Shown piece by piece: positions 24,076 through 27,000 of a DNA stretch of 64,000 nucleotides. Made by a program: the position numbers. Numbering within the stretch: position 1 is the first letter of the stretch; the number at the start of each line of letters is the position of its first letter. Source of the DNA: Octopus vulgaris (taxonomy: Eukaryota); NCBI GenBank assembly GCA_951406725.2, contig OX597818.1:105462001-105526000 (forward strand). The letters are read 5' to 3'.

Positions 24076-27000
24076 CATACACACACACACACACATTGAT
24101 ACTTCCTTACATTCATGTTATCTTCCAATATTGTGTAATGTAGGCAAAAGGGATAAAGAGGCAAATCTTCATTGAAGATTATTGTATTCAGAATAGATGA
24201 TAGTTACAAATTTTAACAACCTGTAATTACAGAAAATAATCACAATAAACTGAAACCACATACAAATTTATTGGACTTTTTGAGTTGTAATAACAACAGT
24301 ATTCCATACTTTCTAACTCAAAAAAGCCCTCTCATAGTTTTTAACTTGGTAGAGATAAATCAAGAATATAGCCCAGAACTACAAAAATAACTAAGTAATA
24401 ACAGGAACAGATACATATGTGAAAAAAAAAAAAATCAATTTTGAATATTACATGAACTTGATAATGTGAATCCTTTGATGCATTCTAAATGCCAAAATAT
24501 TTTTTAAAAATCTACTTAAAGATTAATTTTTTAGCTTAAAATGAGGAAACTAAAATTTGTTAATTTGCATGATAGTTATTTATTAGTTTAATACTATGTT
24601 TTTTTTATATTTTGTCTCCTTTAAAAAAAGCTATTGAAATTCGAAGGTGTAATACTCAATATGAATCTATGTAATACACGAACTCTAATGCACAAGATAA
24701 ACTCAAAAATAAACATGAAACGAAACAATTGTATATAAGTATATCCTTCTCACTTTAATAATATAAAATTTTAAATTTAACACTGACATATACTATAATT
24801 CCATAACTATTCTAAAAAATTTTCACTTACAAGCTTTGAACATTTCATACCTCTCAGATGCTTATCATAAATGGCAAACTAGTTTTAAATGAATAAAAAT
24901 GAATTCTAGAAAATTCATTCATTTTATAAATCTAGTATAAAAGTTATCAAAAATATTTATGGTGAGACAATTTTCTTACTAAATACAGGATGTTAATTTT
25001 CCCTATTGACGTTTTTTATTTTCTTTTAAGAAAAAAAAAACCATATCAGTAAAATTTTCTTTAGATGGGCAGTTCAAAAATATTTCTATTTTTTAAACAA
25101 ACTAAAAATACATAATCTGATTTATTTCAAACAAAAATGCAGGAAAAGGAACCTATTATTCAAACAAAGCTGGAATTAACCTATTAAAGTGCTTCTAAGT
25201 TTCTCAAAGTAATATTTTATTAAAAAATACTATTTAGGTTTTAATTTTCATTTAAAAGACAAATTGTTAGTAAATTCTATGTTTAATATAAAAAAAAAAC
25301 CTGAAAGCAAAGACGACTTGCCAACGATCTGGAAAATAATCTGAAAATAAGAACTACTCATGACAAGAAGTACAATGGAAACAATTTTGAGTTAGTTTTT
25401 TAAGAAAAGCAATGGTACTAAATTGGTGGCTGAAATCAAAACATTGACTAACAGAATCTATCAATGACTGCACTAGCACCAGAATATGAAAAATAAATTC
25501 TGTGCTACTTATATATATATATACATATATATAATTATTATTATTATTTAGGAAGTGGAGTTTAGAAGAGATAAATCTCATAAAAGAAACATTAGAAATG
25601 TTAAATACAAATACCCCAACTTTGGCCAAATAGTTATTAAATGAAAATTCATAAATTTCACTTGTAACTTAAAATACAAAATAAATATTTGACAATTTAT
25701 TCACAAATGTTTATATATAATATTTTGCCAAAATTTAAAAACAATTTTCCAATTCAAATAAAATGAAAATGAAATGAAATATTTGAATAAAATGAAATAG
25801 GTAAGAGACAAAATTACAACCAAGGTCCAGCAACAGGAAAGGAGCAAAAATTAAAAGAAATGTTTTCTTTACCTTTCCCGCCGAGTCTCTTCATAAGTTC
25901 GTTTGCGAACATGACCAGCTGCATGAGCTGGATGCCCTGGCAAAGCAGCAACTGCTGGCGGGGTTGAAGTAGGGATAAGAGTTGCAGCAGGTGCACCAGC
26001 AAGTAGTGGCTGTCCAGGTGGAGGAGGTGGAGGCATGCCTGGAGCCATTGGAACAGCCATCATGTATGGTGGAGGCACCATCATAGGAACAAATCCTGGG
26101 TATTGATTCATTTTTCAAGATATCTATTTATGAAGATAAATAAAGTAAAAAATTTGTCAGTTCAAAATAATGGTTCAATATATGAACAATTGCAGAGATA
26201 AATGACAATGTGTTTCCTAATTCAAATACATGTAATAAAAAAAGAATCAAGACAAACTTTTTAGGTTGCAATAATATTCTTTCTACTTTGCAGAGGATGG
26301 GTTAGTCAATACCACTGGTAAAAATACTTGACTAATCATTTTATTGACCACAAAAGAATGTTAGGAAAAGTTGACTTCAGCTGTAGTATTAAAGTAAGTT
26401 GACATATTTCTCATATCTTTAAGTTCATTTTTCCATGCAAGCATGAGTTAGATGAATATATTGAGGTAGCTAGATGCATTTCCTGTTGCTAACACAAAAG
26501 TATGATAGAAGGATAAACACAGCTGCCTTGTTATTGAGGAGATATACAACTGAAAGAGATAAAAAGAAGGTAGTGACAGGTACTAGAGCAAACTCGAAAC
26601 AAACAAAATGAGTATAAGAGAGGATATGGACAGCAGATAATGGGAGATAAGAATGGATGCTTTCATAAGACTGTGAGGTACAAGAAAACAGGTAGAGATA
26701 GAGGTCAATGTAGTGAACGATGGGGTGTAGATGATGAGTAAGGATGGAGATGCAGAGGATAGGAAATGCCAGTGTGTAGAGAGTAAGAAAGGAGATACAG
26801 AGGTACATAAGGTGCTATAACAAGTGGGGCATGACATTAGATATGAGAGGGTATTAAGAATGGTTGCAGATAAGTGTTCAGAATGGGGTATAGCAGAGGG
26901 AAGTGAGAGCAGTGGCTGAAGGGATAGCAAAGGGGTGATTGACAGAAATAGTGTAAGCCAGGATAAGGAATGCAATGAAAAATGGAAATGTTTCTGAGAG

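What the first reader, a model, noticed from the sequence alone, without database searches (positions are those of the whole stretch)
25873..26123. hnRNP U/UL1-family gene that appears to lack the SAP domain and has a Pro/Met-rich N-terminus instead
Seen: the SPRY exons are hnRNPU-family; the only phase-compatible upstream coding exon I found starts with an ATG preceded by an in-frame TGA, so the ORF cannot extend 5' through this exon; no SAP-like exon was recognisable in the 35 kb up to the RhoGDI 3' end. Established: hnRNPU/SAF-A, UL1 and UL2 begin with a SAP DNA-binding domain and an acidic tract. Inference: a lineage-specific paralog (or isoform) with DNA anchoring replaced by a proline-rich ligand region (PPPY and PPPPPPG, WW-domain type ligands), of interest in a lineage with unusual RNA processing.
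Basis: partly seen in the sequence, partly recalled or inferred. Interest (0 to 1): 0.72.

Follow-up and report, generated by a model that had tools for sequence, protein, structure and literature searches.

The report
SAP-less hnRNPU-like gene, mollusc-wide paralog
This is the first coding exon of a cousin of the hnRNP U-like RNA-binding proteins that lacks the usual DNA-binding SAP domain; the gene is an old paralog already predicted in many molluscs, not a cephalopod novelty.

Summary
On the minus strand, an exon (26123-25873) starts a reading frame at ATG 26111, two codons after an in-frame TGA. It ends at a GT donor in the phase that fits exon 7948-7802, which opens the hnRNPU-type SPRY region, followed by exon 5018-4931. 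The gene then leaves the window. No SAP-coding sequence was found anywhere in the window.

The Met/Pro-rich start (MNQYPGFVPMM...) is the conserved N-terminus of a SAP-less hnRNPU-like clade. That clade is predicted in 15 named mollusc species (gastropods, bivalves, a cuttlefish) and forms one clade (100/100). Nine of those species also carry a separate SAP-bearing gene, as does Octopus sinensis. So this is a paralog, not an isoform, and not cephalopod-specific. The PPPY motif is unique to this window (0 of 23 relatives), so a WW-ligand role is weak.

One unexpected point: all 23 clade members carry Asp where human hnRNPUL1 has Asn456. A 2026 paper shows that N456D re-activates its "dead" polynucleotide kinase. 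The clade may therefore be a live RNA 5'-kinase. The kinase exons lie outside the window, so for this gene that is inferred only.

The parts
25873..26123 (-). First coding exon (exon A). Inferred acceptor AG at 26125-26124; in-frame TGA at 26117-26115; ATG at 26111-26109; 79 codons plus 2 bases; donor GT at 25872-25871.
   Evidence: Sequence read. The peptide matches P0001 residues 41-88 and the N-termini of SAP-less mollusc proteins.
26052..26111 (-). Conserved N-terminal motif: the first 20 codons, MNQYPGFVPMMVPPPYMMAV.
   Evidence: the first 10 residues are identical in P0003, P0005, P0012 and P0020. 19 of 23 clade members start with M-N/A-x-Y/H/S. 14 of 23 keep the P-M-M...P-Q-x-Y-M core. 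PPxY occurs only in the window.
25899..25907 (-). Basic patch RKR (residues 69-71), a possible nuclear localisation signal.
   Evidence: Sequence. Runs of three or more K/R before the SPRY region occur in 11 of the 21 clade members whose SPRY start could be located. The function is inferred.
7949..25872 (-). Intron 1, 17,924 bases, holding repeat debris that includes a reverse-transcriptase fragment at 16342-16599 (+).
   Evidence: No SAP-like ORF lies inside it.
7802..7948 (-). Exon B, the linker and start of the SPRY region (...ALDFYNSDLNLVIDAD).
   Evidence: splice sites; tblastn 81% to P0001 residues 89-140; 83% to P0001.
4931..5018 (-). Exon C, the SPRY region (YGAKSLTEPDGFCFTWAGARATYGVTRGK).
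   Evidence: 90% to P0001 and P0017, 79-83% to other SAP-less proteins, and at most 62% over its full length to any SAP-type protein.

Best explanation
The exon is the true first coding exon of the cephalopod orthologue of a mollusc-wide, SAP-less paralog of the hnRNPU/hnRNPUL family. The canonical SAP-bearing hnRNPUL1-type gene is a different locus.

Shown:
- The protein starts at ATG 26111 with a conserved ~20-residue Met/Pro/Tyr motif.
- It runs through a short Ala/Pro-rich linker with an RKR patch and splices across an 18-kb intron into the SPRY region.

Inferred from orthologues, because the rest of the gene lies beyond the window:
- It continues with the SPRY plus P-loop polynucleotide-kinase-like core and a long Gly/Pro/Gln/Ser/Arg-rich tail with RG/RGG repeats.

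Likely working (inferred): a nuclear RNA-binding scaffold protein. It holds RNA through the core and the RG-rich tail but is not tethered to DNA by a SAP domain. The conserved N-terminal motif and the surrounding low-complexity region would serve as a protein-docking or self-association module.

In all sampled clade members the kinase-like domain has Asp at the catalytic position, where human hnRNPUL1 has the inactivating Asn456. The other ATP- and RNA-contacting residues are kept. I therefore think it more likely than not worth testing, at about 0.35, that the clade is an active RNA/DNA 5'-kinase.
For: - Start and junction.
- Conserved N-terminus.
- No SAP in the window.
- No SAP in orthologues: none of the 23 clade members carries PF02037 in the precomputed column. 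11 of the 23 were scanned here with no SAP at E<=0.01, while controls P0081 and P0015 were positive.
- Clade: 19 of 19 sampled rows fall on one branch, 100/99 (55 rows) and 100/100 (63 rows). Bit scores to the Sepia core are 551-678 against 474 or less for everything else.
- Separate SAP-type mollusc clade, 100/97, including Octopus sinensis P0134.
- The odd N-terminus of the Sepia model is the same exon read in another frame: window 26160-26050, 51% identity.
- Asp at Walker-A Lys+22 in 23 of 23 clade members, against 193 Asn, 5 Asp and 9 other among the other 206 proteins.
- Numbering was tied to human N456 through K434, W437, W477, D505, T507 and R516.
- N456D restores kinase activity in human hnRNPUL1 (PMC13066744, section 11 read).
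- Of 4 columns fixed-different between the clade and the rest, N456D is the only non-conservative one.
Against: - There are no transcript data for this species. The 25873->7948 junction rests on phase, consensus splice sites and one annotated orthologue model whose own N-terminus is faulty.
- Exon A alone found nothing at E<=1e-3 among 1.84 billion representatives. It found only one protein in the word-indexed search. The N-terminal similarity is therefore significant only inside the family set.
- The kinase-like exons are outside the window, so Asp is not shown for this gene.
- The same paper reports that hnRNPU N512D was not re-activated and that hnRNPUL2, with Glu at the site, is inactive. 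Asp alone does not guarantee activity.
- No Octopus orthologue of the SAP-less clade appeared among the 120 listed hits.
Confidence: 0.85

Rival explanations
1. One reading: a cephalopod- or lineage-specific paralog in which DNA anchoring was replaced by WW-domain ligands (PPPY, PPPPPPG).
For: The window does encode VPPPY and a PPPPPPG run. The gene does lack SAP.
Against: The SAP-less clade includes 14 named gastropod and bivalve species. PPxY is present in 0 of 23 relatives, which have PQPY, PQQY, PQHY or PQHF. The poly-Pro run is not conserved.
Confidence: 0.1
2. A SAP exon exists but was missed. It could lie beyond the window (upstream of RhoGDI), be split by introns into pieces too short to score, or join through an internal acceptor such as the pyrimidine-rich ...ggacag| just before QPLLAG.
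For: A good-looking internal AG follows a long C/T tract inside exon A. The Sepia model diverges from the window exactly upstream of QP(I/L)LAG.
Against: That divergence is explained by a frame shift of the same DNA. The ATG and motif are conserved as the N-terminus in 19 of 23 relatives, several on 4-5 kb contigs that hold an uninterrupted ORF of more than 1100 aa, which I take to be transcripts. No SAP signal was found in 3455 ORFs. None of 23 orthologue models has SAP.
Confidence: 0.04
3. The exon is not coding or the gene is decaying: an open frame in Pro-rich DNA arose by chance, or this is a pseudogene copy.
For: The peptide is low-complexity. It has no Pfam family, no Atlas look-alike and no library-wide hit.
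Against: The first 10 residues are identical to 4 gastropod proteins. Exons B and C are intact with consensus splice sites and are 83-90% identical to the Sepia protein. Alternative frames are closed, with a stop in the frame used by the Sepia model.
Confidence: 0.02

Closest known systems
Human hnRNPUL1 (E1B-AP5), as described in PMC13066744
   Same: SPRY plus polynucleotide-kinase-like core. K434, T435, W477, D505 and T507 are kept in 19 of 19 sampled clade members and R516 in 17 of 19. Disordered flanks and RG/RGG-rich C-terminal tails.
   Different: No SAP (residues 3-37 in the human protein, per the paper's Introduction). No acidic N-terminal tract. A Met/Pro/Ala/Gly/Gln-rich N-terminus instead. 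Asp instead of Asn456. Much longer tails, 1049-1700 aa overall.
SAP-bearing mollusc hnRNPUL1-type proteins (for example Octopus sinensis P0134, Nucella P0132, Dreissena P0139)
   Same: Same family and core. Present in the same genomes (9 species).
   Different: A separate clade, 100/97. SAP present. Asn at the 456 position, except Bulinus P0148 (Asp) and Lymnaea P0143 (Thr). 719-1136 aa.
HNRNPUL1 [Acanthosepion pharaonis] model (P0001, 1700 aa)
   Same: Nearest relative of the window's exons: 79-90% identity exon by exon, with the same exon A to exon B junction.
   Different: Its first 40 residues come from reading the same exon in another frame, so the deposited model hides the conserved N-terminal motif.
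Tunicate SAP-less long forms (Clavelina P0083, Phallusia P0086, Styela P0087)
   Same: No SAP in the Pfam column. Asp at the 456 position. Joining them with the mollusc clade is not rejected and is marginally the best tree found (p-AU 0.559).
   Different: They start almost directly at the SPRY region, without the MNQYPG motif. Their stem branch is long (0.80), so the grouping may be long-branch attraction.
PNKP and T4-type polynucleotide 5'-kinases
   Same: P-loop, catalytic Asp after the second strand, and Walker B Asp. The paper superposes the hnRNPUL1 model on PNKP. There is a weak sequence hit of P0012 to T4 polynucleotide kinase 1ly1, E=0.28.
   Different: No phosphatase or FHA domains. 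Fused to SPRY and long disordered tails. Activity is untested.

Membership tests
hnRNPU / hnRNPUL (SAF-A) family | N-terminal SAP DNA-binding domain (PF02037) | tested here: not met
   No SAP in 3455 six-frame ORFs (best E 2.3) or in Pfam scans. Absent in all 23 orthologue models (11 re-scanned, with positive controls).
hnRNPU / hnRNPUL (SAF-A) family | SPRY domain directly followed by the P-loop kinase-like (AAA_33) domain | tested here: inconclusive
   The window holds only the first ~30 residues of the SPRY module (exons B and C). Exon B alone gave no Pfam hit, but the exons match the family at 83-90%. Orthologues have PF00622 plus PF13671. The remaining exons are outside the window.
hnRNPU / hnRNPUL (SAF-A) family | C-terminal RG/RGG-rich RNA-binding tail | not testable with these tools
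   Outside the window. Orthologues have 1-23 RG dipeptides in tails of 473-1171 aa.
hnRNPUL1-type 'dead' polynucleotide kinase (PMC13066744) | Asn at the position of the PNKP catalytic Asp (human N456) | tested here: not met
   Tested on orthologues only: Asp in 23 of 23 clade members. Column identity was checked by K434, W437, W477, D505, T507 and R516 offsets. It could not be tested on the window's own gene.
Mollusc SAP-less hnRNPU-like clade (defined here) | N-terminus M-N-Q-Y-P-G-x-V-P-M-M...P-Q-x-Y-M | tested here: met
   The window starts MNQYPGFVPMMVPPPYMM. 19 of 23 members share the start and 14 of 23 the core.
Mollusc SAP-less hnRNPU-like clade (defined here) | SPRY-start exons closer to this clade than to the SAP-type clade | tested here: met
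   Exon C is 79-90% identical to clade members and at most 62% (full length) to others. Exon B is 83% to P0001, but for more distant members it does not discriminate: 42 bits to P0011 against 41.6 to an insect SAP-type protein.
PPxY WW-domain ligands | A conserved P-P-x-Y in the disordered region | tested here: not met
   Present in the window (PPPY) but in 0 of 23 relatives. Binding was not tested.

The most novel reading that the evidence does not exclude
The window's gene belongs to an old animal paralog of the hnRNPU family, kept in molluscs and perhaps tunicates. That paralog never had, or shed, the SAP domain, and its polynucleotide-kinase domain is alive. It would be an hnRNP that phosphorylates 5'-OH RNA ends, the natural counterpart of the engineered human N456D protein. 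Its conserved N-terminal Met/Pro motif would be a so far undescribed docking signal.
Probability: 0.3. Interest if true: 0.75.

Novelty: new variant of a known kind. Interest (0 to 1): 0.45.

Why it matters
The missing SAP domain is real, but it marks a widespread, already-predicted mollusc paralog and not a cephalopod invention linked to unusual RNA processing.

What may matter is the clade itself. No paper found in searches describes it; these covered full text of open PMC and bioRxiv, and only listings were inspected. It combines loss of DNA anchoring with an Asp at exactly the residue whose Asn-to-Asp change turns human hnRNPUL1 into an active polynucleotide kinase.

That makes an open question directly testable: did the hnRNPU family descend from, or still include, working RNA 5'-kinases? 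The work also corrects one deposited gene model, the N-terminus of the Sepia pharaonis HNRNPUL1.

Tried and rejected
- Translating 15-kb stretches for a six-frame Pfam scan failed because of stop codons. I used ORF lists instead.
- A frame slip on exon B was corrected.
- phmmer of exon A against 1.84 billion representatives gave 0 hits at E<=1e-3.
- The ESM Atlas gave no usable hit and holds no model.
- Pfam on the exon A and exon B peptides found 0 families.
- tblastn of the first 700 residues of 5 family proteins found no further exon between 1 and 4930. Only spurious hits appeared, at E 0.39-0.93. The intron after exon C is therefore longer than 4.9 kb and the gene leaves the window.
- The PDB sequence search with P0012 gave DDX1 and ASH2L SPRY domains, PSTK, and a weak T4 PNK hit (E 0.28), but not PNKP. 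Residue equivalence with the PNKP catalytic Asp therefore rests on the paper, not on my own alignment.
- I considered a PY-type nuclear import signal for the P-x-P-Y core. I dropped it because the upstream basic residue and the spacing do not fit; the consensus is recalled, not tested.
- I considered Pro/Gly/Met-rich motifs of the kind bound by spliceosomal WW, GYF or OCRE domains. That label is recalled; one search gave only listings. PG[MVIL] occurs in 19 of 21 pre-SPRY regions, but I ran no composition control, so it remains only a lead.
- One Pfam hit, Saf4_Yju2 at 59038-59136 (E 0.0066, 16.6 bits, below the 27.8 cut-off, among 298 queries), is taken as chance.
- The genome-contig collection holds bacteria and archaea only and was not used.

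Full report
WHAT IS IN THE WINDOW

The window has no N, is AT-rich, and its coding matches are molluscan. I do not take it for human. On the minus strand, one search shows the following:
- a T-rich tract ending in AG at 26125-26124;
- then ...TGA AAA ATG, with the TGA at 26117-26115 and the ATG at 26111-26109;
- 79 open codons, MNQYPGFVPMMVPPPYMMAVPMAPGMPPPPPPGQPLLAG...HVRKRTYEETRRE, plus two bases;
- a GT donor at 25872-25871.

No AG lies between the TGA and the ATG, so the reading frame cannot be extended 5' through this exon. Exon B (7948-7802) follows an AG at 7950-7949 and supplies the one base that completes the split codon. It ends ...ALDFYNSDLNLVIDAD, the start of the hnRNPU-type SPRY region. 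Exon C (5018-4931) continues with ...GFCFTWAGARATYGVTRGK. tblastn with the first 700 residues of five family proteins found no further exon below 4931, so the gene leaves the window. I searched the exons one by one throughout and made no joined model.

IS THE ATG THE REAL START?

The exon A peptide found a single longer protein in the word-indexed search: 1 hit among 700 candidates of 140-2000 aa. That protein is HNRNPUL1 [Acanthosepion pharaonis] (P0001, 1700 aa). It matches residues 34-79 at 79% identity and carries the same exon A to exon B junction.

Its first 40 residues look unrelated. One search shows they are the same DNA read in another frame: window 26160-26050, 51% identity, with a stop in that frame in the window. 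The deposited model is therefore frame-shifted at its 5' end. It is evidence neither for another first exon nor for an internal acceptor.

Searching with P0001 residues 1-520 gave 196 hits at E<=1e-5, of which 120 were listed. This brought in 22 further close relatives. Fourteen are from named gastropods and bivalves: Babylonia, Nucella, Physella, Lymnaea, Biomphalaria, Candidula, Bradybaena, Haliotis, Gigantopelta, Bulinus, Sinanodonta, Dreissena, Mytilus galloprovincialis and Pinctada. Eight are unnamed.

Their N-termini show the following:
- 19 of 23 start M-N/A-x-Y/H/S.
- Four gastropods share the window's first ten residues exactly.
- 14 of 23 keep the P-M-M...P-Q-x-Y-M core.
- The four exceptions are the frame-shifted Sepia model, one partial model, one model that starts at an internal Met, and one with a different start.

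The loose start pattern also matched 2 of the other 206 proteins. Both are SAP starts, so those matches are chance. The ATG at 26111 is therefore a conserved translation start.

IS SAP REALLY ABSENT?

I built a SAP HMM from 63 SAP regions of the fetched family members; it recovers 66 of 120 proteins at E<=1e-3. Against all 3455 six-frame ORFs of at least 12 aa it scored no better than E=2.3, 5.7 bits. Two Pfam scans also found no SAP:
- the 150 longest ORFs, at least 71 aa and on both strands, out of 191 of at least 65 aa;
- all 298 minus-strand ORFs of 30-70 aa between 26124 and 61560.

Short ORFs inside the 18-kb intron and on the plus strand were covered only by my HMM.

The space up to the Rho_GDI terminal exon (61555-61779, minus strand) holds only reverse-transcriptase fragments. 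None of the 23 relatives carries PF02037 in the precomputed column. Eleven of them, scanned here, had no SAP at E<=0.01, while two SAP-bearing controls scored 1.7e-11 and 2.1e-13.

PARALOG, ISOFORM OR LINEAGE NOVELTY?

A search with the SAP-to-kinase part of a SAP-bearing Mytilus protein gave 669 hits at E<=1e-10, of which 120 were listed. It returned SAP-bearing proteins from nine species that also have the SAP-less protein: Nucella, Gigantopelta, Physella, Lymnaea, Biomphalaria, Candidula, Bradybaena, Bulinus and Dreissena. It also returned one from the cephalopod Octopus sinensis (P0134).

Trees of the ~420-column SPRY-kinase core gave these results:
- The SAP-less proteins fall on one branch: 19 of 19 rows at 100/99 (55 rows) and 100/100 (63 rows). 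The stem length is 0.37, and the internal order follows cephalopod, bivalves, gastropods.
- The mollusc SAP-type proteins form their own clade: 18 rows, 100/97. It sits inside a lophotrochozoan SAP-type group (97/99).
- All 38 bilaterian SAP-type rows lie on one side of a branch with 87/99 support, which is not decisive.
- Forcing all molluscs into one clade costs 34.45 log-likelihood units (p-AU 0.0117).

That group was named after I had seen the tree, and the long stem invites long-branch artefacts. The copy therefore predates the split of the three mollusc classes and may be much older, but its age is not settled.

The trees used 63 of the 229 fetched proteins. The 166 rows left out were mostly vertebrate and arthropod hnRNPUL1-like proteins and isoforms. 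They also included the two models with duplicated cores (P0002, P0015) and four clade members (P0014, P0016, P0022, P0024). Vertebrate hnRNPU and hnRNPUL2 were not in my sample.

THE WW-LIGAND IDEA

PPPY is present only in the window. The 23 relatives have PQPY, PQQY, PQHY or PQHF at that place, so 0 of 23 carry PPxY in the first 45 residues. The poly-proline run is not conserved either. What is conserved is the 20-residue start and, more loosely, a hydrophobic-P-P-G-hydrophobic element after it.

The pre-SPRY regions are 92-349 residues long and are Ala/Gly/Gln/Pro/Met-rich rather than acidic. I have no tested function for the motif. A docking or self-association role is inference.

AN UNEXPECTED FEATURE OF THE CLADE

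For paper PMC13066744 (iScience 2026) I read the abstract and outline, sections 8, 11 and 15, and search passages. I did not see its supplementary figures. The paper reports the following:
- The nucleotide-binding domain of human hnRNPUL1 is a "dead" polynucleotide kinase.
- Asn456 sits where PNKP has its catalytic Asp396.
- N456D restores ATPase activity and 5'-kinase activity on RNA and dsDNA.

I tied its numbering (G433/K434/T435, W437, W477, D505, T507, R516) to the ungapped family alignment. In the chicken orthologue, Lys+3, +22, +43, +71, +73 and +82 read W, N, W, D, T, R.

At Lys+22, all 23 SAP-less clade members have Asp (G-T/S-D). Among the other 206 proteins the Walker A sites read Asn 193, Asp 5, Gly 4, Thr 2, Lys 2 and His 1, with one protein where no site was found. 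The five Asp cases are three tunicate SAP-less long forms, one unnamed relative of theirs, and one Bulinus SAP-type protein.

Across the 55-row alignment only four columns are fixed-different between the clade and the rest. N456D is the only non-conservative one. K434, T435, W477, D505 and T507 are kept in 19 of 19 rows, and R516 in 17 of 19.

Holding the tunicate Asp-type forms together with the mollusc clade is not rejected. It gives a slightly better likelihood than the free search (+0.51, p-AU 0.559). Both stems are long, so this does not show common origin.

There are three caveats:
- The paper itself found that the equivalent change did not activate hnRNPU.
- It also found that hnRNPUL2, with Glu at the site, is inactive.
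- The kinase exons of the window's gene are not in the window.

LITERATURE

Searches covered open PMC and bioRxiv full text; I inspected only the listings. They turned up no paper on SAP-less hnRNPU-like proteins in molluscs or on natural Asp-bearing family members. One search was dominated by general cephalopod papers and is weak evidence. Subscription journals are not covered, and bioRxiv supplements are closed.

VERDICT

As a window finding it is a fairly ordinary orthologue of existing models. The clade it belongs to deserves a bench test as a possible live polynucleotide kinase.

UNCHECKED
- Transcripts of this species.
- The rest of the gene.
- The closed metagenome and viral contig collections.
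- Whether Octopus has the SAP-less copy.

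Noticed in passing
Outside the window (orthologues P0001, P0003-P0014, P0016-P0025); the corresponding exons would lie beyond window position 1: All 23 SAP-less clade proteins have Asp at the position of human hnRNPUL1 Asn456, the residue whose N-to-D change re-activates the dead polynucleotide kinase. Among the other 206 proteins, 193 Walker A sites have Asn.
   Followed up: yes
Proteins P0083 (Clavelina), P0086 (Phallusia), P0087 (Styela), P0095 (unnamed): Tunicates also have long SAP-less forms with Asp at that site, beside a SAP-type gene (Styela P0058). 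They start right at the SPRY region. Grouping them with the mollusc clade is not rejected (p-AU 0.559), but both branches are long.
   Followed up: partly
window 26050-26160 (-) versus P0001 residues 1-41: The deposited Acanthosepion pharaonis HNRNPUL1 model begins in a shifted frame of the same exon. This hides the conserved MNQYPG start and suggests an indel in that assembly or a mis-called start.
   Followed up: yes
window 61555-61779 (-): The last coding exon of a Rho GDP-dissociation inhibitor gene (Pfam Rho_GDI positions 129-193 of 193, E 9e-24). It is the upstream neighbour on the same strand.
   Followed up: partly
window 3462-3887 (+); 16342-16599 (+); 46945-48434 (+): Transposon debris. 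There is a mariner-type transposase fragment in the intron after exon C. There are also reverse-transcriptase fragments, one followed by a weak PHD-like stretch, in intron 1 and in the intergenic space. Many TA/CA-type microsatellites give long spurious ORFs.
   Followed up: no
window 51948-52496 (+): An ORF with a GIY-YIG-looking stretch reminiscent of Penelope-like elements. That resemblance is recalled; there was no Pfam hit at E<=1e-3.
   Followed up: no
Proteins P0002 (unnamed) and P0015 (Acropora): Each contains two SPRY plus AAA_33 units (two stretches per family). They are either tandem gene copies fused by the predictor or true duplications. Both were left out of the trees.
   Followed up: no
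Protein P0081 (E1BAP5 [Mytilus edulis]): SAP starts only at residue 411. The first ~400 residues are unrelated to the family and look like a fused neighbouring or mobile-element ORF.
   Followed up: no
Proteins P0148 (Bulinus), P0143 (Lymnaea), P0107 and P0111 (hemichordates), P0104, P0114, P0116, P0118 and P0120 (including named Hymenoptera): Scattered other states at the Asn456 column inside the SAP-type group: Asp, Thr, Lys, Gly, His. The site is not absolutely fixed outside the SAP-less clade.
   Followed up: no
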